The notes: generated from the sequence alone by a model not told the origin. A DNA stretch of 64,000 nucleotides from an uncultured archaeon (GCA_964363635.1 CAYIIU010000002.1:768-64767); one strand, 5' to 3'; counted from the stretch's first letter, positions 42,852 through 64,000 are shown. A program made the numbers and translations.

Positions 42852-42995
42852 TTCAAAGTACGGTATAAAAAAAAGCACAAGTTTGATGTAATTGGAGAAT
42901 TTATAGATTACTTTCCTGATTGTCATGTACATAAATCCGATCTTTTAATCCTCTTGATTCTGAACTAAAGACGATTATCCGTCTATCATCATTTT

Positions 42996-43139
42996 TTATT
43001 TATTCTCTTCTGGGATGGAGTGGCGAATAATATCCAAATTACATGACTGGTGGGTACTGCACCATTTGTTACATTTCTTTACCCACTTTTTTTCTTTATA
43101 GTATAATTTGCATTCCATGCATTGATATTTTTTGGTCAT
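42996..43139 (-). CDS. Small Cys-rich protein (47 aa), not in the ORF track
   Basis: My own translation is MTKKYQCMECKLYYKEKKWVKKCNKWCSTHQSCNLDIIRHSIPEENK. It has a CxxC plus three further Cys and one His, and begins 5 nt after the multicopper oxidase stop. Confidence 0.45.
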   Translation of the reverse strand: MTKKYQCMECKLYYKEKKWVKKCNKWCSTHQSCNLDIIRHSIPEENK

Positions 43140-43143
43140 CCGT

Positions 43144-44745
43144 TCACTCTACCATGACGGAAGTCATCATTTCTGAGGAAAGGTGCTCTGCAATGTGGCA
43201 GTGGAGCATCCATTCTCCCGGGTTGGTGAATTCTACGAGCAATTCTACTTCTTCTCCTTGTGGAATTAAGACCGTGTCTTTCCAAACCAAGTGCTGATTT
43301 GTTTTCCCATTTTGGGTTAATACGAGAAATCTGTTTCCGTGTAAGTGAATGGGGTGTTGCATGGGGTGAGAGGATTCGGACAAATTTTTGATACGAATTT
43401 TTTTGATGTCTCCTTTTTTTACGTTCCAATTAAAATCCATGTTTTCTTTTTTTGTTTTTTCGTCTCGAATAATCCATGTGACTTCTTCATTTGTGGTAAT
43501 GGCATTTACTCCTTCCATTTCGTCTTCCCATTCGATCGTGCTTTGTTCCGTGTGCCCCATTCCTTGTTTCATTTCCATTCCGCCGTGCTGCATATTTTTC
43601 ATCATTGTATCCATGACCGGCCAACGAATCGTTAATTCGTATGTTTGGGCAACGGGATCATCAAAATATTCCCTATATTGTTCAATGTCAGCCTGAGCTT
43701 CAAGATTTGCCTCGAGATTCAGCGTTTGATTTTCGCCGCTATTTTCCTTTATTTGGAATTTTGCCAATATTGTTTTGGCAACCGGTGTATCATTTGTCAA
43801 CATATACTCTCCTGGATTTTGGAATACCACATCAATAATAGCTCTTTCCGATGGTGCCAAAATAATTTCGTTTGTTAAAAATGGTTGGCCGAATTTTCCA
43901 ACATCTGCACCAACAGATTTTATTTTAGCACCCGAAATGGTTAATCGGTAGGGGCGAACATTGCTTGTGTTCAACAAGTATAGTCTATTTATCGTATTTG
44001 CGTTCAGGGATAAGGAATAATCCGTTTTTCCATTTACTAGAAACGTGTTGCCGAATCGGCCCATTACTGCAAAATTGGTTTCCTTTTCTGGAAAGGGGGC
44101 AATTTGATTATTTTCCATGCGAATATCATCAATCACGAGAACGTTTTCAGTGTAGACGGGCTCGCCTTCTGCTGACGAAACGAGGATGGCCCCATATAAC
44201 CCCAGTTCCTGCTGCATGTCTTCCCGCACATGAGGGTGGTACCAAAATAATCCTTCATCGGGAAAATCGAGCGTGTACGTGAAGGATTCTCCCGGCAAAA
44301 CTTCTTCCTGTGTGACCCCGGGGACACCGTCGTTTTTATTTTCCAATCGGAGACCATGCCAGTGAACGGTGGTAGGTTTGTCAATGTTGTTCGTGAATTG
44401 GACCGTTATTCGGTCTCCTTTTTTTACTTTGATGAGGGGCCCGGGAATTTGTTGGTTATACGCATAACCGTAAACCGTTTTTCCGCCAATTTCATATTGC
44501 ACGATTTCCGCACTCAAGGCAAATGTGGAACCGGTTTCCAGTTTGGCCTCTCTTGCCGGGAGAAGTTCAACGTATTTTCCAGGCAAATATACGTCCCCAA
44601 CGTTATATCCTGGATAAGGGTCATTGGATTGATTGACAATCGGTGTTTGGTTATTGAGAAAAAAGAATGCAGCGATTCCAATCAGCAATACTCCTGCCAG
44701 AATTATCGGCCATTGGCTTGGTAGTGTTTTCAATTCGTGCTTCAT
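43144..44745 (-). CDS. Multicopper oxidase (CopA/CueO-like)
   Basis: Copper-ligand motifs are TVHWHGLRL, WYHPHV, HPIHLHG and HCHIAEHLSSEMM. An N-terminal TM or signal segment is present. Confidence 0.9.
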   Translation of the reverse strand: MKHELKTLPSQWPIILAGVLLIGIAAFFFLNNQTPIVNQSNDPYPGYNVGDVYLPGKYVELLPAREAKLETGSTFALSAEIVQYEIGGKTVYGYAYNQQIPGPLIKVKKGDRITVQFTNNIDKPTTVHWHGLRLENKNDGVPGVTQEEVLPGESFTYTLDFPDEGLFWYHPHVREDMQQELGLYGAILVSSAEGEPVYTENVLVIDDIRMENNQIAPFPEKETNFAVMGRFGNTFLVNGKTDYSLSLNANTINRLYLLNTSNVRPYRLTISGAKIKSVGADVGKFGQPFLTNEIILAPSERAIIDVVFQNPGEYMLTNDTPVAKTILAKFQIKENSGENQTLNLEANLEAQADIEQYREYFDDPVAQTYELTIRWPVMDTMMKNMQHGGMEMKQGMGHTEQSTIEWEDEMEGVNAITTNEEVTWIIRDEKTKKENMDFNWNVKKGDIKKIRIKNLSESSHPMQHPIHLHGNRFLVLTQNGKTNQHLVWKDTVLIPQGEEVELLVEFTNPGEWMLHCHIAEHLSSEMMTSVMVE

Positions 44746-45173
44746 TTCACCACCTCAATCGTCCCTTTAAACATTTTCATCGAGCAATGAAAAGGAAATT
44801 TTCCTGATTTATCGGGAGTAAACTCGATGAGAGTTTCTCCTTGCGCGGGTGCTAGTTTTCGAACCTTGTATTCGGGAAAAATTATTTCATGACCGCACGC
44901 GGCACCCGCGTCGACTGAAAAGTGAATCCGAACCGGAATTCCTTTCTTTACCGTCAAAAAGTTTGGTTCGTATGTTCCAAATTCGGTTGCTTTGAGAAAA
45001 ACATCCTGCTTGCCATCTACAATAGGAGGAAGGGATAAAACGCCGTTGGAAGAAGGGGTTGTTTTTTCGGTCGTTTTTCCCGTTGGAGTAGCTGTTGCAC
45101 TTATCATTAAGAATATCCCAATAATGATGGCAATTCCCATTCCGATTACGATTTGTTTTTGGTCCATCCGCAT
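44742..45173 (-). CDS. Cupredoxin-like domain protein
   Basis: It has an N-terminal TM helix and the C-terminal FPFHCSMKMFKGTIEVV plus an upstream GAACGHE, a type-1 copper-like ligand pattern. A 4-nt overlap links it to the MCO gene. Confidence 0.75.
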   Translation of the reverse strand: MRMDQKQIVIGMGIAIIIGIFLMISATATPTGKTTEKTTPSSNGVLSLPPIVDGKQDVFLKATEFGTYEPNFLTVKKGIPVRIHFSVDAGAACGHEIIFPEYKVRKLAPAQGETLIEFTPDKSGKFPFHCSMKMFKGTIEVVK

Positions 45174-45180
45174 TCCTCCA

Positions 45181-45663
45181 TTATTTATTCACGTTATACT
45201 CGTTTACTTTCTTCGACTTGAAAAAACCAAGCGTTGGTAATCGGATACACTTTTTGGTCCATTGAAAATAAAAAAAGAGTAAAAACAATCCAATGGAAAC
45301 GATTCCTAAAAAAGGTCGCAAAGGTTCAATCGTTGAAAGGATGAAAGGGAAACCCAACGCGGCGACCAATAGATAATTACAGATGGGGCATGCAAAGGAT
45401 ATGAATCCAGCAACCGAAGCAACGCCAATCGGAAGATTTGTTTTAGGTTGGTTTGAAAAAGATAGGTAAAACGCTAGTAACCCGCTTATGATTACTAAAA
45501 ACGCATAATCAAGCAGGGTAGCCGGAACCATTCTCACATACTGAATAATGGGATTGGGTATGAGCGCTGTCGGAGTTCCAAATAATAAGACAAGTCCAAT
45601 CCAAAGCGCAAAAAAAACAAGGAACGGCTTCATTTTTTCCAATAAAAAAGGAGTTGATTTCAT
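45181..45663 (-). CDS. Polytopic membrane protein with an intramembrane CxxC
   Basis: About 5 TM helices. It contains FACPICNYLLVAALGFPF and is a distant paralog of 46276..46731 (VAQCPACASLGALFLPL). Confidence 0.6.
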   Translation of the reverse strand: MKSTPFLLEKMKPFLVFFALWIGLVLLFGTPTALIPNPIIQYVRMVPATLLDYAFLVIISGLLAFYLSFSNQPKTNLPIGVASVAGFISFACPICNYLLVAALGFPFILSTIEPLRPFLGIVSIGLFLLFFYFQWTKKCIRLPTLGFFKSKKVNEYNVNK

Positions 45664-46283
45664 GCAGACTCTTCTATAGTTTCGAGTCGAATCGTGTATT
45701 TGTCTCCCTCACGGATAACTCGGTTTTCAAATTCCGTGTTTTCTTTTCCGTTCACTAAAAAGACCATTTTGGTTAATGTTTCTCCATTTGCACACGTGTC
45801 TCCAATCTTTTTTCCATTAAATTCATTGGCATTGAAAGTCGTTCCAAGTCGTTGAATAAACTTTCCCAACGTAATCTGTTCAGGGGTGGCCGCTGCACCC
45901 TCGACATGAATTCGCTGATCATCATGCGTGTGTAGGAGGTGGTCAACGATGGGGGCATTGGGAATAATGTACGGTTGGCCGCACACGCTGGCTTCTAAGT
46001 CCGCGTGCCAATGCACGTTTCCGGTTGGAAACTGCATTCCTTCAATATTGAGCAATGTTTTAGGAGTATTGCCATTTGCATTTAGAATTCCGCTGGCAAG
46101 CACGGCAACACCGAGACCCAGAATCAAAACGATAAGGATAGGAATTTTCCATTTCGTTAAAATGGGGTTAGGTTGTCTTTCCGCGGGCATTGTTTCCGGG
46201 TGCTTGGCCTTCCGATGCATGGAAAGCGCGTCCGCGTTGGAGAATGATTTTTGGCACTTGTCACAGCTGTTTTCTTCACTCAT
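45660..46283 (-). CDS. C2H2 zinc-finger - TM - extracytoplasmic HWHA-domain protein
   Basis: CDKCQKSFSNADALSMHRKAKH fits C-x2-C-x12-H-x4-H. It is followed by the TM helix IPILIVLILGLGVAVLASGIL and the domain VHWHADLEASVCGQPY...HTHDDQRIHVEG, which is shared with 48548..49459. Confidence 0.65.
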   Translation of the reverse strand: MSEENSCDKCQKSFSNADALSMHRKAKHPETMPAERQPNPILTKWKIPILIVLILGLGVAVLASGILNANGNTPKTLLNIEGMQFPTGNVHWHADLEASVCGQPYIIPNAPIVDHLLHTHDDQRIHVEGAAATPEQITLGKFIQRLGTTFNANEFNGKKIGDTCANGETLTKMVFLVNGKENTEFENRVIREGDKYTIRLETIEESA

Positions 46284-46731
46284 TTTTGAATGCTCCCAAA
46301 TAGTTCAACGTGAAAACGAGCAAGACGATGCTGGCAAGTGTAATGTATGTTCCATAGGTGGCTAAGAAATTTATTGCGGATAGAGGGAGGAATAATGCGC
46401 CTAAGGATGCGCATGCCGGACATTGAGCGACTAAAAAAGTTCCCATGGTTCCAAATCCAGTGGTTCCCGTTCCAACCATTCGTTCATTGGTTGAACATGT
46501 ACCTGGTTTTTTCCATAAACTGATTTGATACGATAACGTGACTCCGAATAATAGTGAAAAGAGCATGGTTAATGCTAAATTTAGTGGAGGAACCGATGCA
46601 AACCACACTCCCAAATTTTCTATAATCCCCAATACTTGAGTATAGGTATAGAGAGCAAACATGGTCAGACTAGCGAGGAGGGCGATTCCCGCGTAACGCG
46701 GATGGGCGAGTACGCGGAATAATCTAACCAT
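46276..46731 (-). CDS. Polytopic membrane protein with an intramembrane CxxC
   Basis: About 4-5 TM helices with FLVAQCPACASLGALFLPL. Confidence 0.6.
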   Translation of the reverse strand: MVRLFRVLAHPRYAGIALLASLTMFALYTYTQVLGIIENLGVWFASVPPLNLALTMLFSLLFGVTLSYQISLWKKPGTCSTNERMVGTGTTGFGTMGTFLVAQCPACASLGALFLPLSAINFLATYGTYITLASIVLLVFTLNYLGAFKNE

Positions 46732-46749
46732 GTTTTACTCCCTAAAGCA

Positions 46750-47562
46750 TCATTCGAGCGACTGGATGGCCTGTTGAAATACCGTGTACGGTTGGGCTCC
46801 CACGATGAGTTTTCCAGTTCCATCGGCTTTTCCTAGGAAAAACCCGGGTGTTCCCGTTATTCCAACGCTGCCGCCTTCACTGAAGTTGGCCTGAATTTCA
46901 TTGGAGTATTTGTTATCGCCCACGCACTGGTCGAACGTTGTCGAGTTGAGACCAATTTCGGCACCCCATTTCTTGATGTCCGTTGCCGTGTAATCTTGGA
47001 CGGTTCCTTGTCCTTTCTTGTCTTGTTCGACAAAGATTTTGTCGTGCATTTCCCAATATTTTCCTTGGTCGCTCGCGCAGCGTGCCGCGTTTGCGTAAGG
47101 GATAGCCATCGGATGAAAACTAAGCGGGAAGTCCTTGTAGACCAGTTTTACTTTTCCAGTATCAATGTAATCCTTTTGTAAATTTCCTTTTACATCGTTA
47201 AACCATTTCCTACAAAAGGGACACTGATAATCTGAATATTCTACGAGAACAATTGGCGCATCCGATTTTCCAAGTGTTGCGGCCGCATTTTTGACTAACT
47301 CACTCATTTGAGCGGTTGGTGCGGGTGCGGATGGCGGATTTAAATTGCCAGATGGAGCCGTTGGAAGATTGTTTCCCCCCGTGTTTCCTCCGCCTTGAAT
47401 GCTTAAACCATTTAGCCCAGTAGTGAGCGCGCTCGCGGCAGTTATCATTGAATACCCTACAACCACGGCGGCCAGGAGGATGCTCATGGATAGAATTATT
47501 TCAGGTGATATCGTGTTTTCCTTTTTGTGATGAATGGGTGCTAATCCCTCATGTTCAGTCAT
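46750..47562 (-). CDS. DsbA-family thiol:disulfide oxidoreductase (membrane-anchored)
   Basis: The thioredoxin active site is YSDYQCPFCRKW. There is an N-terminal TM helix and a C-terminal GTPGFFLG. Confidence 0.85.
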   Translation of the reverse strand: MTEHEGLAPIHHKKENTISPEIILSMSILLAAVVVGYSMITAASALTTGLNGLSIQGGGNTGGNNLPTAPSGNLNPPSAPAPTAQMSELVKNAAATLGKSDAPIVLVEYSDYQCPFCRKWFNDVKGNLQKDYIDTGKVKLVYKDFPLSFHPMAIPYANAARCASDQGKYWEMHDKIFVEQDKKGQGTVQDYTATDIKKWGAEIGLNSTTFDQCVGDNKYSNEIQANFSEGGSVGITGTPGFFLGKADGTGKLIVGAQPYTVFQQAIQSLE

Positions 47563-47843
47563 TTAGTATCTCCCTCCATGGGTTGACAAATTAAAGTGCA
47601 CTTTACATTGTTTGGTCCAACTTTGTTTTCAGAAAAACTGATGGTCATTCCACTGGAAGAGGATACTTCTGTGGTGGGTTTGTATTCTAGAAAAACGGTG
47701 CTCGATTCATGGTTATCGAGCGATACCATTATTTTAGTCATTGAATTATCTGTCGGGTTTGAAGTGAGTCCTAATCCGATAGCCATGATTGCAAGAACGA
47801 GTACACTCAGTATGCCAATGGGGAGATAATTTTCGGGTTCCAT
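47559..47843 (-). CDS. Small membrane-anchored hypothetical protein
   Basis: 94 aa with an N-terminal TM helix and a 4-nt overlap with the dsbA-like gene. Confidence 0.45.
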   Translation of the reverse strand: MEPENYLPIGILSVLVLAIMAIGLGLTSNPTDNSMTKIMVSLDNHESSTVFLEYKPTTEVSSSSGMTISFSENKVGPNNVKCTLICQPMEGDTK

Positions 47844-47918
47844 ACCAAATCTAATGTAACCTTAATGTATCCATATATTTAACTCTTATGGTGGCTTGAT
47901 AGGAATAGGTGATCTTGA

Positions 47919-48215
47919 ATGGCACTGCCACTATTATTTTGGGTGACCACATTATTCTTTGTCGTGGCGCTTTATCTTACGTTTAAACTTTCGCGTGAGG
48001 TGAAAGGGGAACATTACTGGATTTTCTTTTCGGTGGGCATTATTGGCTTTGCCATCACACACTTTGCCACTGTCCCAGGGTTATTGGGATTGAGTGCAGA
48101 TACCTTGGATACACTGCATGAACTTGGGGAAATTGTTGGGGCATTCGCTCTAGCGTACGCGAGCTACGGATTGTATTCTTCGCTTAAGCACATTCGGAAA
48201 CGATTGGCGGAGTAA
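47919..48215 (+). CDS. Three-TM hypothetical membrane protein
   Basis: 98 aa with three hydrophobic helices, upstream of a wHTH gene. Confidence 0.5.
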   Translation: MALPLLFWVTTLFFVVALYLTFKLSREVKGEHYWIFFSVGIIGFAITHFATVPGLLGLSADTLDTLHELGEIVGAFALAYASYGLYSSLKHIRKRLAE

Positions 48216-48224
48216 AAGTTTCAC

Positions 48225-48491
48225 ATGAAGTCCGTTCTTTTCTATTGGGGAAAAGGCGCCGATACCCGCGTTGCCATCATCAAAACAATTGGTGTATGTA
48301 ACGAACGAAAGGAGCCGTGTTTTCTCAATCAGATTGCCCAAGCCAATAATCTATCGCACGTCGCAATAATGAAACATTTGTCCCTGTTGATGGAGGAAGG
48401 GTACGTGCGAGAGCTCAACCCGGACGGAAAACCAATATATCTTGAGTTGACTGAAAATGGGAAAAAAATTCTGCGAGAATTCACCAAATAA
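48225..48491 (+). CDS. ArsR-like winged-helix regulator
   Basis: NQIAQANNLSHVAIMKHLSLLMEEGYVRELNPDGKPIYLELTENG. Confidence 0.65.
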   Translation: MKSVLFYWGKGADTRVAIIKTIGVCNERKEPCFLNQIAQANNLSHVAIMKHLSLLMEEGYVRELNPDGKPIYLELTENGKKILREFTK

Positions 48492-48547
48492 TCCTTTTTG
48501 GTAGCTGAAACGAGTCTCTAACGAAGCACCATGTTTTTAAGGAACGG

Positions 48548-49459
48548 TTGGGCATGGGGATGAGTTCATTCGGAAAAAATATTATGAGAAACAATATTCC
48601 AAGCATCGGATTGATTTTAGTTGCTATCCTTTTCATTGGTATAGCCACTAACATGACGTTTGCTCATGAAGGCGAAGAAGACGAAAATGGAATGGAAATA
48701 ATCGAGGAAAACACAACGGCCGCAGCCATCCCTCATCTTGCTGAGCAGTTGAAAGAATGGTCACTGGAAGTAGCCATTGTCGCACTTATCCTCATTATCC
48801 TTCTCGCAGAGTATGCTGTTAAAAAAAATCCACGAAAAGAAAAAGTAAAACGACTATTATTTGGAAGCATGATTGGTATAGGAATTATTTCCACTGTCTT
48901 TTTGGCGGGGGGAACCATTTACTTGAACATTGTTTCCGCGACTAGCGGTCCCGTTCACTGGCATGCCGATTATGAAGTGTGGAATTGCAATGAGCGACTT
49001 GACTTGATTGACCCGGAAGGGTTTTCCAACAAACAGGGAGAAGAAACGATTCATGAACACAACGATGATCGTGCGCACGTGGAAGGAGTGCTCATCGATT
49101 TGCACGATGCCAGTTATCATCGTTATTTTGAGATAATTGGAGCCAAAATGGACGCACGCGGAATGACCTATCCAGCCAACACGGGAGACGTTTTCATGCC
49201 TCGAAAGGGAACCTGTAATGGAGAGCCGGCGGAAATCCAGGGATTTTTATTTCGAGTCAAAAATCCTGAAGAGGCCCAAAAATGGGAATATGAACAAACA
49301 AAAATACCCTACCCCTACAAAGAAATTGTTTCGCCATATGGAAATGTTCCACCGGGGGACTGCCTAATCATCGAATACGGGCCCCTAAAAGAAAAAACCG
49401 AGCACATCTGCGCCTCCTACAAAGTAGCCGAGCAACGGGGGGACCTAAATGGCCGTTGA
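48548..49459 (+). CDS. Membrane protein with an extracytoplasmic HWHA domain (paralog of the 45660..46283 C-terminal domain)
   Basis: PVHWHADYEVWNCNERLDL...ETIHEHNDDRAHVEGV follows TM helices and an acidic HEGEEDENG segment. Confidence 0.6.
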   Translation: MGMGMSSFGKNIMRNNIPSIGLILVAILFIGIATNMTFAHEGEEDENGMEIIEENTTAAAIPHLAEQLKEWSLEVAIVALILIILLAEYAVKKNPRKEKVKRLLFGSMIGIGIISTVFLAGGTIYLNIVSATSGPVHWHADYEVWNCNERLDLIDPEGFSNKQGEETIHEHNDDRAHVEGVLIDLHDASYHRYFEIIGAKMDARGMTYPANTGDVFMPRKGTCNGEPAEIQGFLFRVKNPEEAQKWEYEQTKIPYPYKEIVSPYGNVPPGDCLIIEYGPLKEKTEHICASYKVAEQRGDLNGR

Positions 49460-50159
49460 AGCATTCCTGCCAACCCTTGGAACAGTTGTCGTTACAGCCG
49501 CCATTGATTCCATTAATCCCTGTGCCATCGGAGTATTGATTCTCATGGTTTCCGTTTTGGTCGGAAAAAAGAAAAACACGCGAGAAATGCTATTCTTTGG
49601 AGGAATGTACATTGCGGCAGTATACGTGACCTACCTCCTCGCCGGACTAGGACTAATGTATTTTCTATCCAGCATTCCGCTATGGATATCCGAGTACATC
49701 TCTATCGCTGTCGGTTTAATTGTCATTTTTGCGGGATTCCTTGAGATAAAAGATTTCTTTTGGTATGGAAAAGGATTCTCGCTCCAAATACCACCCCAAT
49801 ATGCGAGTAAAATTAACAAATACGCGGAAAACGTGACACTACCCGGAGTCATATTCTTAGGAGTATTCGTGGCAGGAGTCGAACTACCATGCACGGGAGC
49901 CCCCTACCTTGCCATTATCGCTCTTTTATCTCAAAACTTTGACACCACGGCCTTCCTCTATCTGCTCATATACAATCTTATTTTTGTAGCCCCGCTAATT
50001 TTTATTTTGGTGGCAGTCGCCATGGGACAAAAATTATCGGTGTTCAAAAAGTGGAAACAGGAAAACAGAGGATACATGCGCTTGGCCATTGGAATCATGC
50101 TCATCGCAATGGGTTGGCTGCTTATCCTGATTGCAAACGGGACCATTAACTTGGGGTAA
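49449..50159 (+). CDS. CcdA/DsbD-family transmembrane thiol electron transporter
   Basis: About 6 TM helices with conserved Cys in TM1 (DSINPCAIGVL) and TM4 (VELPCTGAPY). Confidence 0.75.
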   Translation: MAVEAFLPTLGTVVVTAAIDSINPCAIGVLILMVSVLVGKKKNTREMLFFGGMYIAAVYVTYLLAGLGLMYFLSSIPLWISEYISIAVGLIVIFAGFLEIKDFFWYGKGFSLQIPPQYASKINKYAENVTLPGVIFLGVFVAGVELPCTGAPYLAIIALLSQNFDTTAFLYLLIYNLIFVAPLIFILVAVAMGQKLSVFKKWKQENRGYMRLAIGIMLIAMGWLLILIANGTINLG

Positions 50160-50166
50160 TGTAAAA

Positions 50167-50472
50167 ATGACAAAAACTAAATCAAAGCTCCGAAAGTTTG
50201 CCTATCGGCACATCGTCAAACGCCACGGACACTCGGAAAAATTTGACGAGCGAAAAATTTATGCCAGCGTCTATGAAGCCGCACATGTAGCACTGTTATC
50301 CACGAAGCAAGCCGAAAAAATAGCATCCAGCGTTTCCAATCACCTCAAAAAGTTGGTAGAAAAGAAAGATACAGTCAACGCGAAAGAAATACATAAACAA
50401 ACCGTGAAAGAACTCAAAAAACACCATGCGGAAGTCGCATTCATGTATGACACCCACAAAGATATATGCTGA
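50167..50472 (+). CDS. Stand-alone ATP-cone domain protein
   Basis: HIVKRHGHSEKFDERKIYASVYEAA...KEIHKQTVKELKK follows the ATP-cone pattern (V.KR.G..E.F...KI). I trimmed the start to ATG 50167. Confidence 0.55.
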   Translation: MTKTKSKLRKFAYRHIVKRHGHSEKFDERKIYASVYEAAHVALLSTKQAEKIASSVSNHLKKLVEKKDTVNAKEIHKQTVKELKKHHAEVAFMYDTHKDIC

Positions 50473-50486
50473 TATTTCAAAATAGC

Positions 50487-50514
50487 GGATTAATTCGGAT
50501 AGATTTCGGGGAAC
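50487..50514 (+). promoter_or_regulatory. TTCGGA-N-TTCGG motif copy a, upstream of a TATA-like box
   Basis: CGGATTAATTCGGATAGATTTCGGGGAA is followed by TTTTAAAC. Confidence 0.45.
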
Positions 50515-50552
50515 AATTTTAAACAAAAGAAAAATGTCTTAATGTGGAGATT

Positions 50553-53615: not shown

Positions 53616-53619
53616 GGAG

Positions 53620-57774: not shown

Positions 57775-57816
57775 GTTTATATTACAATATTCCTATTATG
57801 GGATAATAGTGATATA

Positions 57817-58449
57817 ATGAGTTATTCGTTGCTAGTCCGAAAACTTCTCGGTCGAGAAAATCGATACATCCCAGACGATGAATTAGCCGCATATTGCAAA
57901 TCGATTGGAATAACCTACACGAAGGCGGTCAATTACTTGGGAAAATACCATTACATTGACCGTATCCTTCGAGGATTCTTCTATATTCCAAGCATCGAAG
58001 AACGAAAACTAAAATCGGGTTTCCCAAACCCTTATGAAGCGATTGCCAAAGCAATGGAATATAAGAAAGTCAAAAACTGGTACTTCGGACTCGAAACGGG
58101 CATTAAACTCAATAACATTACTCATGAATCGTTTACTGTCGACTACGTGGTTTCCGACACAATTTTTCGTCCAAAACCAATTACTATCCTGGGTCGAAAA
58201 GTAAAGTTTGTCAAACTGAAAAAAAATCTCTTTAGCTTCGGCATCATTGAAAACGGAAGCTGGCGTTACTCCGATCTTGAAAAAAGCCTGCTCGACATCA
58301 TTCACATCCGAAAATATAACGGAAAAAGCGACAAAGCCATCATTGACGAGCTCATTGAATGGGGAGAACACGCGTCAAAGAAGAAGCTTAAAGAATATGC
58401 GAAACACTATCCACTATTTGTCCGCAAGGTCGCAGGTGAACTTAGATGA
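57817..58449 (+). CDS. AbiEi-like antitoxin / transcriptional regulator (type IV TA)
   Basis: 210 aa with a 4-nt overlap with the AbiEii-like gene. The N-terminal DDELAAYCKSIGITYTKAVNYLGKYHYIDRILRGFFYIP is wHTH-like. Confidence 0.55.
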   Translation: MSYSLLVRKLLGRENRYIPDDELAAYCKSIGITYTKAVNYLGKYHYIDRILRGFFYIPSIEERKLKSGFPNPYEAIAKAMEYKKVKNWYFGLETGIKLNNITHESFTVDYVVSDTIFRPKPITILGRKVKFVKLKKNLFSFGIIENGSWRYSDLEKSLLDIIHIRKYNGKSDKAIIDELIEWGEHASKKKLKEYAKHYPLFVRKVAGELR

Positions 58450-59474
58450 TTGAAAAAGGACTCATTGACTGGATATCTCGGGACAAGGGGATTGTGAACC
58501 GCGAATTAATCGAAAAAGACCTATTACTCCAAGGATTACTGGTTAGCCTTGCTAAATCCGATTATTTCAAGCGCAATTATGCATTCAAAGGGGGAACCTG
58601 TCTTACCAAAGCCTATTTCGGATACTATCGCTTTTCCGAAGATCTCGATTTTACCTGGATGCACCCCCAAATGTTCGAAAACCTTTCAGGAAAAGGCGTG
58701 AGAAAAAAATTAACCCAAGAAGTCAACCAAATACTAGCCCTACTAGAAACAAGTGCTAAAGAAGTAGGACTCGATTTCAAACCCGAAAAATCAAATGACC
58801 ATTATACTCAATTTGGAGGCGGAAAACGATTCGCCACCTTCAAATGCTGGTACAAATCAACGACTACTGAAAGCGAATCGTTCATCAAAATCCAAATCAA
58901 TTTTGTTGAATTGCTCATATATTCCCCAAAAATAATGGATATAAAACCACTTTACTCTCGGGGATCCCGAGAATTGGAAGTATTATATCCCGATAATAGC
59001 GGCTTAGCAACTCGCCGCGCCGAATTATTTGTATATGACATACGAGAAATAGCAGCTGAAAAAATTCGGGCCATACTCACCCGAAAAGGGATCAAAGCAC
59101 GCGATTATATCGATTTATACATCCTTGACCAAAAGCAGACCCCTATTTCGAGTGTTTTAGAAGCTGCCATGAAAAAGACCCTCTTTATGCTCGACTACGA
59201 AAAATATGCTCAAAACCTTTTTGAAAAGAAATTCGACCAAAAAACAGAATTAGGAAAGGAAGAAAATCTCCTGATAAACCCAGTCGAAAAAGGCTTTCCA
59301 ATCTATACTGAAAAAGCCCAAAAAATACTCGCCAACGCGGCGGAAACCCTGCGAAATGAATACACGAAAACTAAATCATGGAGCGAACTAACCAAACCAT
59401 TGAAAAGAGCCAAAAAGAAAGTACGAGAAGAAGATGTCGTGGATTTAGTTCATCGAATAAGAAAAGAAAAATGA
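58446..59474 (+). CDS. AbiEii/AbiGii-family nucleotidyltransferase toxin
   Basis: YAFKGGTCLTKAYFGYYRFSEDLDFTW is the GG...(S/T)EDLDF NTase core, and a downstream KIRAILTRKGIKARDYIDLY is present. Confidence 0.8.
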   Translation: MIEKGLIDWISRDKGIVNRELIEKDLLLQGLLVSLAKSDYFKRNYAFKGGTCLTKAYFGYYRFSEDLDFTWMHPQMFENLSGKGVRKKLTQEVNQILALLETSAKEVGLDFKPEKSNDHYTQFGGGKRFATFKCWYKSTTTESESFIKIQINFVELLIYSPKIMDIKPLYSRGSRELEVLYPDNSGLATRRAELFVYDIREIAAEKIRAILTRKGIKARDYIDLYILDQKQTPISSVLEAAMKKTLFMLDYEKYAQNLFEKKFDQKTELGKEENLLINPVEKGFPIYTEKAQKILANAAETLRNEYTKTKSWSELTKPLKRAKKKVREEDVVDLVHRIRKEK

Positions 59475-59486
59475 GATGAGAAATAA

Positions 59487-59837
59487 TCATTCAATGTGAA
59501 TAAAACTCTTAATTTTTTCATTCATCTGCAACTTTTTACGAAGAACGACCTCGACTTGATCCAAATATCCTTTTTCTAACTCTAATTGCTCGCGAGTGTA
59601 AGATAGCCGCGGATAAAATTGGAAAACAAAATCATTGATACTCTCTTTTCGTTTGCGAATAACCACACAATCATACCTAGACAAATTTTCTTTACTGGTT
59701 TTTGAAAAAACCTCGAAAAATGAGTCCAAAAAATAGCGACAGGTGATTTGAGTGTGGGAGCGAATCTCCTCTTTAGAGGGTTTTGGATTATTGAAGAGAT
59801 AACCGACTTCCAAATATACGACATTTTCAGATGCCAT
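59487..59837 (-). CDS. Hypothetical protein
   Basis: 116-aa ORF with no recognised motif. Confidence 0.4.
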   Translation of the reverse strand: MASENVVYLEVGYLFNNPKPSKEEIRSHTQITCRYFLDSFFEVFSKTSKENLSRYDCVVIRKRKESINDFVFQFYPRLSYTREQLELEKGYLDQVEVVLRKKLQMNEKIKSFIHIE

Positions 59838-59945
59838 GCCCGTGATAGAAACTCATTCTTAATAAAACTGGAGTTTACGAATTATGCAGGTTAAATAGTC
59901 GAATACTAGCGAAGCTATAAAAATATGATAATGTGATAATTAAGT

Positions 59946-60917
59946 ATGTTCACCAAAAAAATTTTGGCAGTTGCAGTCATCACAAGTCTCTTTTCTGTTG
60001 GTCTATTGCTGGTTGCTTTTGCCCCATCTATTGAAGCTCAAAGCACATTAACAGCCCAATTGATAATCGCGCTAATTAACAAGCCAAAAATCTATCAAGT
60101 CATTCAAACAGACCCCTATCAAAAAGACGCTTTCTGCAATAAGACAAGGGATGTTTTGCTGTATGCATACTGTGAAGGGAATGAAATAAGTAACATTGCT
60201 TCGCCCGGAAATACTAATCCACTTCGCAAACCAATAATGTTTGACTTTTTTACTGACGGAGAATTTGCTACTAATCCTTGGTGGTATTCGGAAACCCCTT
60301 CAAGCGATTGGAACGTTTTCAATCAAGAATTAACAATGGCCCAACCCAATTCAAATGCCACCCTACACACTGTTCTAGGCCCAAGCGCTGGCCCACTTCC
60401 TTTTACGGATGAAACATTCTGGTCGTTCAAGGCAAAAATAGTCGGACCAAATGGGGCAACTGCCTACTATCGTTTTGTCAAAAATGGAACATTGAGCATA
60501 CCAAAAGGGTATAGTCTTGTTGCAACGATTGGTGGGAATTGGCAACTCATTTACCAAGATTACGTGAATCCAGGAATAATGGTTAGCAGAAACATGATTG
60601 TTTCAAACACCCAAGTATCTTCGGGACAAACCTACAATATGACAATACGCCGTGATAACACTGGACTGTTTTCATGGACCATAGATGGAAACCCTATTGG
60701 AGCTGCGCAAGATAATAACTTTTCGAGCATGAACCTTTTTGGAGTTCAAACAGGGAGTACGCCAGTCGAATTACATTTAGATGATGTCAATATTTCAATC
60801 ACCGATTTTAGCCACATGCCTTCAGGCTTCTTCAATCTGAACGATTGGAACAATTCAAGCGGAGTTCGATGCCAATATCCTGGTACAGCAAGACTGGTTT
60901 GTATAAGCCAAACATAG
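59946..60917 (+). CDS. Secreted hypothetical protein (beta-rich)
   Basis: The signal peptide is MFTKKILAVAVITSLFSVGLLLVAFAPSIEAQ. The mature part has a beta-strand-like composition. Confidence 0.55.
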   Translation: MFTKKILAVAVITSLFSVGLLLVAFAPSIEAQSTLTAQLIIALINKPKIYQVIQTDPYQKDAFCNKTRDVLLYAYCEGNEISNIASPGNTNPLRKPIMFDFFTDGEFATNPWWYSETPSSDWNVFNQELTMAQPNSNATLHTVLGPSAGPLPFTDETFWSFKAKIVGPNGATAYYRFVKNGTLSIPKGYSLVATIGGNWQLIYQDYVNPGIMVSRNMIVSNTQVSSGQTYNMTIRRDNTGLFSWTIDGNPIGAAQDNNFSSMNLFGVQTGSTPVELHLDDVNISITDFSHMPSGFFNLNDWNNSSGVRCQYPGTARLVCISQT

Positions 60918-60995
60918 CCAGCGATCCACCGCCAACTGTTAGCACGAACCGCATAACAGGTCGGCACTTTTAAAGTTCGCCCGCGTGACATTCTC

Positions 60996-61886
60996 ATGGG
61001 TTCTATTAAACGTCCTCGTTCCCGAGGAAAGATTAAGCCGGGAATGGTGGCGGTTGGAGGCGTTTTATTTCGGCGGGGTGAACCGCGCGAGAATGTGATT
61101 GCCTATTTCTTGAAGCGTTACGGAAGTGAACTTGGGATTACAACTTTCGATCAAATGGAACGCGTCTTGTTTGTGAAAACGAGGGGCAGTCATCCTAATT
61201 TCGCTGAACTATTTGAAAATAAGTCAAGGGATGACGTTACCAAAAGTTATCACGAATGGGTGCGAAAAAGAGAAGAACGAGCCGCAAACATTCGAGCGTC
61301 AATAGCCAAACGATTGTCTGATCCACTTGTGCGTCAAACTGTCAGCGACCGCTCGAAAAGGGTCATGGGAGAATTACACCGCGACCCAACCTTTGTGTCA
61401 AAACAATCGGCCAGCGCCTCAAAAACGTTGAAACTATGGCGAAATGATCCAGAAGGGAGAAAGCAGTATACACAACACATGCGCGCATTGCGTTCTGACC
61501 CCGGTTGGAATCAAAAACTTTCAGAAAACGTTAGTATGGGCATGCATGAACGATGGTTGGCATCGCGAAAGAAAAAGATGAATGAAATAATAGAAGATGG
61601 CGCGCTTCACGTTGAAGAATTTTCTGGAAACCGATGGGGAAAAAGACGAGCTCGAATCTTAGTAGCCGGGCCCCCTACCACATGGCGAACAACCCAAGAA
61701 GTTCAGCGAGTCCAACGAACACTTACCCGATTAACGGATATTGAACGAGAAGCTATCATCCAACTATTCTTCGACAAGCGTCCCATTTCAAAAGTTGCCA
61801 AAAGCCTCAACCAACCAGAAAAGACTATTTACCAAATCGTGGGGCCTGCCTACAAGAAGATAATGAGAGCATTCAGGGGGCAATAG
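60996..61886 (+). CDS. Basic protein with a sigma-70 region-4-like HTH at the C-terminus
   Basis: LTRLTDIEREAIIQLFFDKRPISKVAKSLNQPEKTIYQIVGPAYKKIMRAF follows the L..re..v..l.y....s..eIA..l......v......A..kl pattern. Confidence 0.55.
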   Translation: MGSIKRPRSRGKIKPGMVAVGGVLFRRGEPRENVIAYFLKRYGSELGITTFDQMERVLFVKTRGSHPNFAELFENKSRDDVTKSYHEWVRKREERAANIRASIAKRLSDPLVRQTVSDRSKRVMGELHRDPTFVSKQSASASKTLKLWRNDPEGRKQYTQHMRALRSDPGWNQKLSENVSMGMHERWLASRKKKMNEIIEDGALHVEEFSGNRWGKRRARILVAGPPTTWRTTQEVQRVQRTLTRLTDIEREAIIQLFFDKRPISKVAKSLNQPEKTIYQIVGPAYKKIMRAFRGQ

Positions 61887-61943
61887 GAGATATTCTGAGA
61901 AATTGTTCAAATAAATCTAATCCAATGGTTTAAACATATTTTC

Positions 61944-62465
61944 TTGATAAAGAATCGTATGAAGAAAGAACCAATCACAATTAATGAATTTGGCCAGATT
62001 TTCAAAAACGAAGCGTTGATGGACGCTACTCTCACAGTGATTTTAAGTATTGTATCAATTGTCAGCTTTGCCATACATCCGCTTCTATCCATTATCCCAC
62101 TAATGATTGAAGGAAAACTTGTTTATGGGATGTCAAAAAAATTTGATCAAAGAAACAGAATTGGAAAAATTTTCGAAGATTTATCCCGAAAAGAAGGAAA
62201 CATTACGCGTGCTGCAATTCAAATATATCAAGCAAAAGAAGAAATTGATAAAACCCGTAAAGAAATAGGAGAAATCAAGGAAAAAATATTTGACGCATTC
62301 AATTCTTCAGGATTTAACCCTATTGAGAAACGAATTGGTAAATTAGAAAAAGAAATGGAAAAGTTTGAAGAAAAAATAATTGGAAGGACTCATTACAGCG
62401 GTTTTCATTCGCTTGCTGAAAGAGTAAAAAATATCGAAGAACAATTGAACAACTTTAGAAGATAA
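61944..62465 (+). CDS. Membrane-anchored coiled-coil protein
   Basis: Two N-terminal TM helices, then heptad-like KEEIDKTRKEIGEIKEKIF...KLEKEMEKFEEKI. Confidence 0.5.
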   Translation: MIKNRMKKEPITINEFGQIFKNEALMDATLTVILSIVSIVSFAIHPLLSIIPLMIEGKLVYGMSKKFDQRNRIGKIFEDLSRKEGNITRAAIQIYQAKEEIDKTRKEIGEIKEKIFDAFNSSGFNPIEKRIGKLEKEMEKFEEKIIGRTHYSGFHSLAERVKNIEEQLNNFRR

Positions 62466-62475
62466 AAAAAATTCA

Positions 62476-63087
62476 TTAATGATTGTTAATCATCCATGGC
62501 TTCAGTTTCGATTGTTCCACCTGTTTGATTTGAACATCAATGGTTCGTCGCATCTCGCGTAACGTAAATTCATCCAAAACCGTTTGGTGACTCTTCTTCG
62601 AAATAAGCCGTTTTTGTCCACCATCTACTTCTACGAGATAGAGTTCTTCGCTCAAGCTGGACGAGTGATTAACCAGTTTACTGATGAGCTCTCTCCCACG
62701 TTTCAGGCGTGCGGAAAGCTGTTGAAAATGGTTTCGATAGGCTGCCTCAGGGTTTTCAGCGAAATAGCTTACGGGCGCGAGGTTCGTTTTCTTGATTAAG
62801 CCCACTTTTAGGAGGTCGTTGAGCACGATGTAGGTGCTGGATCGGGCTATCCCCGCCTCTTTTACGATAATGTCAACGGGGAGGGGCTCTATGTGCCATA
62901 ATAGGCGGTATATTCGGGCGTGATTGCGCGAGAACTCAGGGAAAAAATGTCGAAATAAACTCCACAATTCTTCGGTATTTTCGAGTGTACCCAAGGCAGA
63001 CCTCCCATGTCTGCATAACCAACTAGAATCGGAACAATATAAACATAACGTTGAAAAGAAAACAACTGATTGGTTGAAATTTGGCAA
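62476..63087 (-). CDS. TrmB-family transcriptional regulator (start probably downstream of the track ATG)
   Basis: HARIYRLLWHIEPLPVDIIVKEAGIARSSTYIVLNDLLKVGLIKK is the TrmB N-terminal wHTH pattern. Confidence 0.65.
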   Translation of the reverse strand: MPNFNQSVVFFSTLCLYCSDSSWLCRHGRSALGTLENTEELWSLFRHFFPEFSRNHARIYRLLWHIEPLPVDIIVKEAGIARSSTYIVLNDLLKVGLIKKTNLAPVSYFAENPEAAYRNHFQQLSARLKRGRELISKLVNHSSSLSEELYLVEVDGGQKRLISKKSHQTVLDEFTLREMRRTIDVQIKQVEQSKLKPWMINNH

Positions 63088-63140
63088 GTCTAAGTGATTC
63101 TACAAAGTGGGTTTAAAATGCTTATAAACTACTATCTATC

Positions 63141-63989
63141 ATGAATGAATCGCATGAGGAATTACTTTCAATAATTGAGCAGGGAGCTGTCGAGTATTAT
63201 TCAAAATATATTTCGCCAGATACGAAAAATCTGCAAAAGATTTCATTGGACCCTGCCGAATCAAATTATTTCCTGCTAAAGAATTTCTTCTATCGGGGCC
63301 GGTCGGATGAGCTTTCGTATCGCTACGAAAAAATCTGCCTTGAGAAGTTGCGGGAATTTTTTGGGAAAGATTTTTCCAAGTGGATACGTACGCCAAACTG
63401 GGACAATCTCAAAATGGAACTTGAAAAACCAACCCGTTTAACAAAGGAGCAATTCGTTGAAAAATGGGGAAAAAATTATTTTGATATCTTTGGAAAACCC
63501 TTCGCAATAAAAAAAGAAAAAATGGGAATTGATGTAGAATCCGATCGAAAAATGATTTTATCTTTTCTGAAATTTGTCCATAAAAATACTGAAAAATTTG
63601 ATTTTAATGCTATGTTATGGTTACAAAACCAGATTGAGAAAGGAAAAATTATTGAGACCTATGATTTTCTGAAGGAAGAAATTTTCAATGTCGGCGATAA
63701 ATTAGCAGCACTTGGCATACGCGAAACAATGTCATTGTATAATATGGATATTGAAACATATGACGATGAAGTGGCTGAAAAACTATTGCCAATCGATACA
63801 CAAGTAAGAAAAACACTCGGTCCCATGGGGCTCAAGTGGGTCGAAAAAGATGACGATGTTAATCAAATAAGGAGAAAGATTATCCAATTGTGCAAAAACA
63901 AAATGTCTCCTATACGATTCGACCAGGGATTATGGTATCTCGCAAAATTTCATCCCGAAAAAATACCTAAACTGGGAGATAACAAATGA
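63141..63989 (+). CDS. Hypothetical protein
   Basis: 282-aa ORF with coding-like composition and no confident motif. Confidence 0.45.
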   Translation: MNESHEELLSIIEQGAVEYYSKYISPDTKNLQKISLDPAESNYFLLKNFFYRGRSDELSYRYEKICLEKLREFFGKDFSKWIRTPNWDNLKMELEKPTRLTKEQFVEKWGKNYFDIFGKPFAIKKEKMGIDVESDRKMILSFLKFVHKNTEKFDFNAMLWLQNQIEKGKIIETYDFLKEEIFNVGDKLAALGIRETMSLYNMDIETYDDEVAEKLLPIDTQVRKTLGPMGLKWVEKDDDVNQIRRKIIQLCKNKMSPIRFDQGLWYLAKFHPEKIPKLGDNK

Positions 63990-64000
63990 TCTACTCCCAC

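What the first reader, a model, noticed from the sequence alone, without database searches (positions are those of the whole stretch)
42852..64000. More than 21 kb A/T-richer island starting at a truncated gene: copper and thiol-redox module, T4SS-like core, AbiE and regulators, with no integrase in view
Codon and base composition change visibly at about 42.85 kb and stay changed to the window end. The island contains the following.
- A multicopper oxidase, a cupredoxin and a small Cys-rich ORF.
- DsbA, CcdA, two CxxC membrane proteins and two HWHA-domain proteins.
- Met/His-rich small proteins.
- Three or four wHTH regulators.
- The T4SS-like cluster and AbiEi/AbiEii.
- A sigma-r4-like protein and a TrmB regulator.

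This combination looks like an integrated conjugative or mobilisable element carrying metal and redox cargo. Its right end and recombinase are not in the window.
Basis: partly seen in the sequence, partly recalled or inferred. Interest (0 to 1): 0.7.

Follow-up and report, generated by a model that had tools for sequence, protein, structure and literature searches.

The report
Integrated T4SS element splitting pilus ATPase
The A/T-richer stretch is a real mobile element of at least 25 kb, inserted by a site-specific recombinase into a pilus/secretion ATPase gene of a tiny groundwater archaeon (DPANN, Iainarchaeia); it carries a conjugation-like type IV secretion gene set plus copper and disulfide-bond cargo, and related elements sit at the same gene position in other, distantly related archaea.

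Summary
GC falls from 46.1% to 41.3% at 42.8 kb, and GC3 from 52.8% to 43.3% (p about 1e-6).

The interpretation also holds, and I could complete it.
- **Left boundary.** The host T2SSE/CpaF-like ATPase gene is cut after ...AGQGKGTY. Close relatives have the intact locus: ATPase (447-485 aa), then T2SSF, then PAC2 where the contig extends far enough.
- **Right boundary.** It lies on another contig from the same well (L008). That contig carries a 451-aa tyrosine integrase, the same 12-nt core AAAGGGAACATA, and the missing ATPase 3' part followed by T2SSF. Joining the two halves restores a 464-aa reading frame.
- **Same site in other genomes.** The ATPase is interrupted at the same codons in at least four other Iainarchaeia genomes.
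- **Horizontal transfer.** One other MAG has a 92% identical integrase and an 83% identical VirB4, although its host proteins are only 36-61% identical.
- **Conserved backbone.** VirB2-like pilin, VirB6, PrgI/VirB3, VirB4 and TrmB, with or without an integrase. The copper/thiol genes and AbiE are movable cargo.

No relaxase or coupling protein was seen, so conjugative transfer is inferred and not shown. I file it as a new variant of a known kind: an ICE-like element family in DPANN archaea that targets a protein-coding gene.

The parts
41844..42851 (+). Host T2SSE/CpaF-like pilus-secretion ATPase, 5' fragment. Homology to full-length relatives ends at residue 324 (nt 42815). The last 11 codons and the stop come from the element.
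   Evidence: Pfam PF00437. Alignment with 447-485-aa homologues. Synteny in L004, L006 and L007.
42803..42814 (+). attL core AAAGGGAACATA, identical to the core next to the integrase on L008 (2168-2179).
   Evidence: Unique in the window.
42815..42842 (+). Left terminal arm of the element, CACGGGGTTTATGTCAAGTAAAAACCCG, an imperfect hairpin. It is identical in the relative L005 and about 89% identical in L011, after which the sequences diverge.
42815..64000 (.). The part of the integrated element that lies in the window. It continues at least 1.5 kb further (L010), then an unassembled gap, then 2.2 kb on L008 that ends with the integrase and attR. Total at least 24.9 kb.
43144..45173 (-). Cargo: multicopper oxidase (43144-44745) and cupredoxin-like protein (44742-45173).
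   Evidence: Pfam PF07732, PF07731, PF00394 and PF13473.
45181..47843 (-). Cargo operon: CxxC membrane protein (45181-45663), C2H2 plus HWHAD-motif protein (45660-46283), CxxC membrane protein (46276-46731), DsbA-like thioredoxin (46750-47562) and a 94-aa protein.
   Evidence: Pfam PF13462 and PF01323 for the DsbA-like protein. The others by sequence only. The block recurs next to VirB4 modules in L018 and L022.
47919..52335 (+). Cargo, continued.
- 98-aa membrane protein.
- wHTH (48225-48491).
- Second HWHAD-motif protein (48548-49459).
- DsbD/CcdA-like membrane protein (49449-50159).
- ATP-cone protein (50131-50472).
- Small membrane proteins.
- wHTH/ArsR-like (50870-51148).
- Met/His-rich secreted protein (51994-52335).
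53316..53615 (+). VirB2/TrbC-like T4SS pilin.
   Evidence: PF18895 at 54.5 bits and PF04956 at 37.9 bits. Conserved in 27 related loci.
53620..54660 (+). VirB6/TrbL-like polytopic membrane protein.
   Evidence: Precomputed PF19590 TrbL_3. Conserved position in relatives.
54674..55528 (+). PrgI/VirB3-like protein with a TraC-like (VirB4 N-terminal) region. It is fused to VirB4 in many homologues.
   Evidence: PF12666, PF26593, homologues of about 1000 aa.
55525..57774 (+). VirB4-like ATPase (residues 1-560) with a clade-specific C-terminal domain (about 575-749). The domain carries conserved H, PD and ExETG motifs.
   Evidence: NCBIfam conju_CD1110 at 318.6 bits against a cut-off of 325. PDB 4AG5 at E=8e-34. 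Alignments A2 and A4.
57817..59474 (+). AbiEi (57817-58449) and AbiEii (58446-59474), a toxin-antitoxin / abortive-infection pair.
   Evidence: PADLOC at 1e-53 and 3e-58. PF08843. Shared only with L011.
59487..62465 (.). Variable genes: 116-aa protein (-), 323-aa secreted protein (+), 296-aa protein with a weak sigma70-r4/ECF-like C-terminal HTH (60996-61886, +), and a 173-aa coiled-coil membrane protein (+).
   Evidence: No homologues in related loci.
62476..63087 (-). TrmB-family regulator, a backbone gene of the element family.
   Evidence: PF01978. Found downstream of VirB4 in 14 related loci.
63141..63989 (+). 282-aa protein of unknown function. Just beyond the window it is followed by a Cas4-like PD-(D/E)XK nuclease.

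Best explanation
The region from 42815 to the window end is the left and central part of an integrated mobile element of at least 25 kb in a DPANN archaeon (Iainarchaeia, formerly Diapherotrites) from anoxic Hainich groundwater.

Shown.
- The element sits inside the host's T2SSE/CpaF-like pilus-secretion ATPase gene.
- It is flanked by a 12-nt direct repeat, AAAGGGAACATA. This overlaps the codons of the conserved GKGTY motif.
- At its far end, on contig L008, is a tyrosine recombinase with the full R-K-HxxR-W-Y signature plus a Zn ribbon.
- The same codons are interrupted in several other Iainarchaeia genomes.
- The integrase, att arm and VirB4 are 83-93% identical between hosts whose own proteins are 36-61% identical. 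The family has therefore moved horizontally and recently.

Inferred.
- The conserved backbone is a VirB2-like pilin, VirB6, PrgI/VirB3, VirB4 and a TrmB regulator. I infer that it builds a monoderm-type (MPF-FATA-like) mating channel and pilus that transfers the excised element. That would make this an ICE-like element.
- DNA processing may rely on nuclease-type functions instead of a classical relaxase. Candidates are the VirB4 C-terminal domain, the Cas4-like PD-(D/E)XK nuclease, and the ArdC-like and resolvase-like genes seen in the sister element.

Cargo.
- Multicopper oxidase, cupredoxin and a Met/His-rich protein suggest copper handling.
- DsbA, a DsbD/CcdA-like protein, CxxC membrane proteins and HWHAD-motif proteins suggest extracytoplasmic disulfide formation.
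- AbiE is a defence or addiction pair.
- These modules sit at different positions in related elements.

Consequence. Integration removes the His-box and C-terminal third of the host ATPase. It should therefore inactivate that pilus system while the element is in place.
For: Composition.

Junction reproduced in an independent assembly.

Intact locus in relatives L004, L006 and L007.

Truncation point.

Right junction on L008, from the same well.
- Integrase (PF00589 and PF13495; NCBIfam XerA-like).
- The ATPase C-terminal fragment starts at KGTYSTFHGHS.
- The 12-nt core is identical, and joining the halves gives an in-frame 464-aa ATPase.

L008's host genes rank L007 > L004 > L006 in identity, as the window's ATPase fragment does.

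Same-site interruptions.
- attL in L005, L011, L013/L020 and L032.
- attR in L091 and L092.

Horizontal transfer. MAG JAZDJQ01 has an integrase at 92.5%, an attR arm of about 93% nt identity and VirB4 at 83%. Its T2SSF is 36% and its ATPase N-part 61% identical to the window lineage.

Backbone conservation and copy number. VirB4/PrgI occur in 35 of the loci clustered, pilin/VirB6 in 27, TrmB in 14 and an integrase in 9. Several MAGs carry two copies.

VirB4 identity.

The sister element encodes an ArdC-like protein and Holliday-junction-resolvase-like nucleases next to its integrase.
Against: - L008 is assigned to the same genome by inference only: same well, complementary gene halves, shared core, and matching similarity ranks. 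No contig bridges about 65.5 kb to L008.
- No relaxase or VirD4/TraG-type coupling ATPase was found in the visible genes. None appeared among families conserved across the related loci clustered.
- VirB4 scores just under the NCBIfam cut-off for conjugative CD1110 ATPases.
- Very similar gene sets in Patescibacteria are thought to be chromosomal and non-conjugative (PMC12102498).
- No circular (attP) or empty-site (attB) sequence was found in the collections searched.
Confidence: 0.75

Rival explanations
1. It is an integrative element, but not self-transmissible. The VirB2/VirB3/VirB4/VirB6 module would be cargo that serves DNA import (like Ced/Ted) or contact with a host cell (as proposed for Patescibacteria and for nanohaloarchaeal VirB4-containing giant proteins). 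The element would spread by other routes.
For: - No relaxase or coupling protein was seen.
- The same four-gene set without a relaxase is widespread in Patescibacteria, where it is interpreted as co-opted for other functions (PMC12102498).
- Ced and Ted are domesticated T4SS derivatives with the same three core parts (PMC9905601).
- DPANN VirB4-like proteins have been linked to host interaction (PMC10266531).
Against: - The T4SS module is the only part conserved across the element family. It travels with integrases and att sites, often in two copies per MAG.
- Archaeal conjugative plasmids also lack recognisable relaxases (PMC9905601).
- The sister element carries an ArdC-like gene, which is typical of conjugative elements.
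- The CedB model scores only 54.7 bits against a cut-off of 700.
Confidence: 0.3
2. It is an old, now fixed genomic island. One ancestral insertion into the ATPase gene would have been inherited vertically by several Iainarchaeia and is no longer mobile.
For: - The same truncation point occurs in five genomes, including a 77%-identical relative with an identical 27-nt arm.
- No empty-site or circular form was seen.
Against: - The closest relatives (L004, L006, L007; 67-79% ATPase identity) have an intact gene. More distant ones (40-61%) are interrupted, so the distribution is patchy.
- The integrase is 92.5% and the att arm about 93% identical between hosts whose T2SSF is 36% identical.
- The integrase has all catalytic residues.
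- GC3 is not ameliorated.
Confidence: 0.08
3. It is a provirus or virus-related element rather than a plasmid-like or ICE-like element.
For: A tyrosine integrase, a Cas4-like exonuclease and a sigma-like regulator match PHROG families.
Against: - No capsid, portal, terminase or tail family was found among the proteins scanned.
- The conserved core is a T4SS gene set.
- There was no match in IMG/VR to the att arm.
Confidence: 0.04
4. The junction at 42.85 kb is an assembly chimera, or the composition change is ordinary intragenomic variation.
For: - Coverage is low, about 2.5-4x.
- Several other low-GC islets exist in the same window.
Against: - An independent replicate assembly spans the junction at 100% identity.
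- The same junction sequence occurs in other genomes from other studies.
Confidence: 0.02

Closest known systems
Integrative and conjugative elements (ICEs) with MPF-FATA-type T4SS of monoderm bacteria (Tn916/ICEBs1/CD1110-type VirB4, PrgI)
   Same: - Tyrosine integrase at one end, and short direct repeats at both ends.
- VirB4 is most similar to the CD1110 family (318.6 bits).
- PrgI/VirB3 and VirB6-like partners.
- A modular cargo and a TA/Abi system.
   Different: - The host is archaeal (DPANN).
- A VirB2-like pilin is present, which is unusual for monoderm systems.
- No relaxase or T4CP was detected.
- VirB4 carries an extra conserved C-terminal domain.
- The target is the coding sequence of a secretion ATPase, which is left disrupted, rather than a tRNA gene or an intergenic site.
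Archaeal integrated conjugative elements and plasmids (Sulfolobales pNOB8-type; Nitrososphaeria ICEs; PMC6563490, PMC9905601)
   Same: - Archaeal elements with a VirB4-like ATPase and an integrase.
- No recognisable relaxase.
   Different: - According to PMC9905601, those elements lack recognisable pilus proteins. This family has a clear PF18895/TrbC pilin and PrgI.
- The host lineage is different.
- The integration target differs.
Chromosomal T4SS of Patescibacteria/CPR (PMC12102498)
   Same: - The same gene set: VirB4, PrgI/VirB3, VirB6 and a PF18895/VirB2-like pilin.
- MPF-FATA affinity.
- Usually no relaxase.
- Ultra-small groundwater organisms.
   Different: In CPR the system is described as chromosomal, often near dnaA, and probably not conjugative. 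Here the module lies between att sites with an integrase and has moved between distant hosts.
Ced and Ted DNA-import systems of Crenarchaeota (PMC9905601)
   Same: A VirB2-like pilin, a VirB6-like channel and a VirB4-like ATPase as the minimal machine.
   Different: - CedB and CedD models score far below their cut-offs (54.7 of 700; 46.1 of 600).
- Ced and Ted are domesticated chromosomal systems and are not carried on an integrative element.
Gene-splitting integrative elements (B. subtilis skin in sigK, Listeria phi10403S in comK, Anabaena nifD element)
   Same: Site-specific insertion inside a protein-coding gene. Precise excision would restore the reading frame, shown here by in-silico joining.
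   Different: There is no evidence here for regulated excision or for a physiological switch. The resemblance is structural only.

Membership tests
Integrative and conjugative element (ICE) | Site-specific recombinase encoded at an end of the element | tested here: met
   A 451-aa tyrosine recombinase lies 60 nt from attR on L008. Assignment of L008 to the same genome is inferred. The same layout occurs in L091 and L092.
Integrative and conjugative element (ICE) | Flanking direct repeats (attL/attR), with the target restored on joining | tested here: met
   The 12-nt core AAAGGGAACATA is at window 42803-42814 and at L008 2168-2179. The joined sequence encodes an intact 464-aa ATPase.
Integrative and conjugative element (ICE) | Mating-pair-formation genes, including a VirB4-family ATPase | tested here: met
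   Pilin, VirB6-like, PrgI/VirB3 and VirB4.
Integrative and conjugative element (ICE) | Type IV coupling protein (VirD4/TraG/TcpA) | tested here: inconclusive
   None was found among the proteins scanned, nor among families conserved in the related loci clustered. Part of the element is unassembled.
Integrative and conjugative element (ICE) | Relaxase and oriT | tested here: inconclusive
   No relaxase family appeared in the Pfam, NCBIfam or PHROG scans. No dedicated MOB library was available. Archaeal conjugative plasmids also lack one (PMC9905601).
Integrative and conjugative element (ICE) | Excision and intercellular transfer | not testable with these tools
   There is only indirect evidence. 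Element genes are 83-93% identical between hosts whose own proteins are 36-61% identical. No attP or attB sequences were found.
MPF-FATA class T4SS | VirB4 of the CD1110/PrgJ type above the family threshold, with a PrgI-type VirB3 | tested here: inconclusive
   conju_CD1110 scores 318.6 bits against a cut-off of 325, so it is the best hit but just below. PrgI PF12666 scores 34.1 bits against a cut-off of 27, which is met.
Ced DNA-import system | CedB/CedD-type ATPase | tested here: not met
   CedB scores 54.7 bits (cut-off 700) and CedD 46.1 bits (cut-off 600).
Tyrosine recombinase | Catalytic domain with R, K, HxxR, H/W and Y | tested here: met
   PF00589 at 59.7 bits. ACRSGE, GKTGDRR, HLFRHS, GW and TYIH are visible in the translation.
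AbiE (type IV TA / abortive infection) | Adjacent AbiEi antitoxin and AbiEii nucleotidyltransferase genes | tested here: met
   PADLOC AbiEi at 1e-53 and AbiEii at 3e-58, with overlapping genes.
PD-(D/E)XK nuclease fold (for the VirB4 C-terminal domain) | Recognisable nuclease fold or profile match | tested here: inconclusive
   H, PD and ExETG motifs are conserved in 27 sequences. There was no PDB or Pfam profile match beyond isolated weak CoiA_nuc and VRR_NUC hits.

The most novel reading that the evidence does not exclude
This may be the founding example of a family of self-transmissible, relaxase-less conjugative elements of DPANN archaea.
- Its minimal backbone would be a VirB2 pilin, VirB6, VirB3, a VirB4 fused to a nuclease-like domain, and TrmB.
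- The family integrates specifically into the GKG(T/S)Y codons of the host's type-IV-pilus/Tad-like assembly ATPase.
- Carriage of the element would then switch off the host pilus system, and precise excision would switch it back on. That would be an 'active-lysogeny'-type gene switch in ultra-small archaea.
- The element would also spread copper and disulfide-bond functions between distant lineages.
Probability: 0.2. Interest if true: 0.85.

Novelty: new variant of a known kind. Interest (0 to 1): 0.62.

Why it matters
**Gene exchange in DPANN archaea.** These archaea have tiny genomes and depend on other cells, and how they exchange genes is largely unknown. Here is a delimited mobile element with both junctions, a recombinase, a defined 12-nt target and a conserved T4SS-like backbone. 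Its near-identical relatives in distantly related hosts document recent horizontal transfer.

**The origin of T4SS-like clusters.** Such clusters are widespread in DPANN, and similar ones occur in CPR bacteria. This element offers a concrete hypothesis for their origin: they may be, or may derive from, integrative conjugative elements.

**Effect on the host.** Because the target is a pilus-assembly ATPase gene, carrying the element probably changes the cell surface of its host.

**Cargo.** The element moves copper oxidase and extracytoplasmic disulfide-bond genes through an anoxic aquifer community.

**Prior description.** I found no description of this family in the searchable literature, which covers open-access PMC and bioRxiv only.

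Tried and rejected
- **Exact-protein look-up of the multicopper oxidase:** not on record.
- **Second copy of the 27-nt arm or the 12-nt core in the window:** none found. Whole-window repeat search gave no att-like pair for this island.
- **tRNA genes as boundaries of related elements:** mostly absent.
- **VirB4 C-terminal domain.**
  - The single-sequence AlphaFold model was unusable (pLDDT 40).
  - The profile search against PDB gave only a chance hit.
  - hhalign against the Endonuc_Holl protein of L091 was negative.
  - The Pfam scan of 27 members gave only isolated weak hits.
- **The 24-sequence VirB4 alignment:** too diverse for the locus search. It was replaced by 9 sequences.
- **Search for excised or other copies:** the attR-arm pattern gave 0 hits in JGI metagenomes and in IMG/VR, and the integrase protein gave 0 relatives in JGI metagenomes.
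- **Bacterial promoter/terminator scan of the island:** not above shuffled expectation, and not appropriate for archaea.
- **Bridging the gap from about 65.5 kb to L008:** not possible. All available assemblies, including the 65,619-bp NCBI contig, stop near the same place.
- **Provirus reading:** rejected for lack of any virion gene.
- **Chimera reading:** rejected.

Full report
**Organism and source**

The window carries an archaeal RNase P RNA and archaeal tRNAs. It also has housekeeping genes (ArgRS, LeuRS, AlaRS, aspartate carbamoyltransferase, UPP synthase) and type-IV-pilin-like genes. Homologues of its proteins are annotated as Diapherotrites/Iainarchaeum.

Identical proteins occur on contigs assembled from the Hainich groundwater well H52 (ENA ERZ1292616-22). 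PMC12023590 describes that well as suboxic or anoxic. The source contig is 65,619 bp, so the window is nearly all of it.

**Observation**

- GC is 46.1% up to 42851 and 41.3% after it. In 500-nt windows it falls from 54-56% to 38-39% across 42.0-43.0 kb.
- Mean GC3 is 52.8% for 25 host genes and 43.3% for 29 island genes (Mann-Whitney p=1.2e-6).
- Tetranucleotide profiles agree.
- Host intergenic motifs are essentially absent from the island.
- The same low-GC signature is seen in three short islets elsewhere in the window. Composition alone would therefore not single out this region.
- The listed genes are confirmed by profile searches. The exceptions are noted in the observation check.

**Left boundary**

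The ATPase at 41844-42851 matches T2SSE (PF00437) but is 335 aa, against 447-485 aa for its homologues. Alignment shows that homology stops after ...AGQGKGTY, at residue 324, followed by 11 unrelated codons.

Three relatives have ATPases 67-79% identical to the window's: L004, L006 and L007. All three show UPP synthase, a small gene, DUF192, a full-length ATPase and T2SSF. PAC2 follows in L004 and L006, while L007's contig ends just after T2SSF.

The window keeps this order up to the break. An independently assembled replicate contig, L003, spans 37981-44293 at 100% identity, which excludes a one-off chimera.

**Right boundary**

I searched with the T2SSF protein of a relative and found L008, a 4.4-kb contig from the same well. 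In order, it carries:
- the C-terminal end of a Cys-rich anchored protein;
- a 451-aa tyrosine recombinase on the minus strand, with PF00589, PF13495 and a Zn ribbon and all catalytic residues visible;
- 60 nt further on, an ATPase fragment that begins exactly at KGTYSTFHGHS;
- T2SSF.

The sequence AAAGGGAACATA is present at both junctions: window 42803-42814 and L008 2168-2179. Joining the window up to 42814 with L008 from 2180 gives an uninterrupted 464-aa ATPase.

L008's host genes are most similar to L007, then L004, then L006. The window's ATPase fragment shows the same order. That supports assigning L008 to the window's organism, although this remains an inference.

The element is at least 24.9 kb. 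That sums 42815 to about 65.5 kb (window plus L010) and 2.2 kb on L008, with an unassembled gap between them.

**The same site is used elsewhere**

- *L005* (ATPase 77% identical) is cut at the same codon and shares the next 27 nt exactly, then diverges.
- *L011, L013 (= L020) and L032* are cut after AGQGKG(T/S). A pilin-VirB6-PrgI-VirB4 module follows 1.3-3.3 kb downstream.
- *L091* belongs to the same MAG as L011. It shows PAC2, T2SSF, an ATPase C-fragment starting at KGTYATFHGH, and then an integrase 92.5% identical to that of L008. Its element-side arm is about 93% identical in nucleotides up to the core.
- *L092,* from a JGI metagenome, has a 53% identical integrase in the same position next to a fragment starting at KGSYATFHS.

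The L011/L091 host differs greatly from the window lineage: T2SSF is 36% and the ATPase N-part 61% identical. Its VirB4 is nevertheless 83% and its integrase 92.5% identical.

The nearest relatives have empty sites and more distant ones have occupied sites. This pattern argues for repeated site-specific insertion and recent horizontal transfer, and against one inherited insertion.

**Backbone and cargo**

I compared the Iainarchaeia loci found with VirB4 (L011-L046) together with the island and L008, L010 and L091. The recurrent families were VirB4/PrgI (35 loci), pilin/VirB6 (27), TrmB (14), a tyrosine integrase (9) and a Cas4-like PD-(D/E)XK nuclease (4). Several MAGs hold two copies.

VirB4:
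- It is most similar to the CD1110 conjugative family (318.6 bits, cut-off 325).
- It matches the solved VirB4 domain 4AG5.
- CedB and CedD models score far below their cut-offs.
- It has a conserved C-terminal domain of about 175 aa with H, PD and ExETG motifs. I could not establish its fold, so calling it nuclease-like is an inference from the motifs.

Cargo:
- The copper/thiol block lies between attL and the T4SS module in the window.
- It lies downstream of VirB4 in L018 and L022, and is absent from L011, L013 and L032. It is therefore movable cargo.
- AbiE is shared only with L011.
- The sister element also encodes an SNF2-like helicase, an ArdC-like protein and two Holliday-junction-resolvase-like proteins.

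**Mechanism**

*Shown:* site-specific insertion by a tyrosine recombinase system at a 12-nt core inside the GKGTY codons, a disrupted host gene, and horizontal spread.

*Inferred:* the excised circle is transferred through a pilus and channel built from the VirB2, VirB3, VirB4 and VirB6 homologues.

No relaxase or coupling ATPase was seen. That is also true of known archaeal conjugative plasmids (PMC9905601). It is equally true of the Patescibacteria T4SS, which is thought not to be conjugative (PMC12102498).

The main rival therefore remains: an integrative element whose T4SS module serves DNA uptake or cell contact.

**Comparison with known systems, and novelty**

This is an ICE-like element. 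It differs from described ICEs in four ways:
- its host group (DPANN);
- the combination of a monoderm-type VirB4/PrgI with a VirB2-like pilin;
- the extra VirB4 domain;
- integration into, and disruption of, a secretion ATPase gene.

I found no description of it in the searchable literature, but that library is incomplete. I rate it a new variant of a known kind.

Noticed in passing
window 15419-19290: The 3' end of tRNA-Ser(GGA), CGTTCGCTGCGT, is repeated three more times, at about 15.63, 18.34 and 19.27 kb. The repeats bracket a low-GC stretch that holds a sigma70-r2-like HTH gene, an AbiEii-like nucleotidyltransferase with a partner gene, and small HTH genes. There is no integrase. This looks like decayed tandem remnants of tRNA-targeting integrative elements.
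   Followed up: partly
window 198-3432: An IS200-type Y1 transposase (198-668) lies next to two overlapping Fic/SoFic-like genes (1302-2606, 2437-3432) in a low-GC islet. A Fic gene also lies next to the VirB4 module in the related locus L018.
   Followed up: partly
window 14268-14444, 24561-24738, 32988-33156: An intergenic repeat of about 170 nt occurs in three copies (69-87% identical), with two GC-rich hairpins (CCTCGCCCTTTAGGGCGAC, CCCCGGCCTTTAGGCCGGGG). A shorter motif, TTTTAGAAAAAG...GATCAAAA, occurs about 10 times in the host part and is essentially absent from the island. Its function is unknown: a MITE, a terminator/promoter cassette or a small RNA.
   Followed up: no
window 53620-54660 (residues 114-164): The VirB6-like protein has an internal segment that matches the T4SS_pilin profile, and the pilin and VirB6 families merge in BLAST clustering. 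This echoes the CedA/CedA1 and VirB6/VirB2 relationship noted in PMC9905601.
   Followed up: partly
window 6920-13997: A cluster of genes for proteins with archaeal class-III (type IV pilin-like) signal peptides, including two giant proteins of 746 and 768 aa. These may be substrates of the pilus system whose ATPase gene the element interrupts.
   Followed up: no
L011 3990-10000: In the closest related element, a 6-kb block of minus-strand genes and a duplicated PrgI fragment is inserted between PrgI and VirB4. The block includes a 658-aa protein with a weak M64 peptidase hit. The T4SS operon itself is therefore a site of secondary insertions.
   Followed up: no
L020, L062, L071: Contigs binned as Peregrinibacteria, Bdellovibrionales and Bacteroides carry DPANN-type VirB4 loci. 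L020 has the same sequence as the archaeal L013 in the regions compared. These are probably mis-binned contigs in public MAGs.
   Followed up: no
beyond the window end (L010 2415-2696; window-equivalent about 65.2-65.5 kb): All three Hainich assemblies and the NCBI contig stop within about 100-500 nt of one another, just after the Cas4-like nuclease gene and inside a further ORF. That ORF's only relative is in L062. The break suggests a repeat or strain-variable segment at that point.
   Followed up: partly
L007 and L022 (both GCA_964524375.1): This MAG has an intact ATPase target site on one contig. On another contig it has a T4SS module (VirB4 80% identical) with the copper/thiol cargo. A related element therefore sits at a different site, or is extrachromosomal, in that organism.
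   Followed up: no
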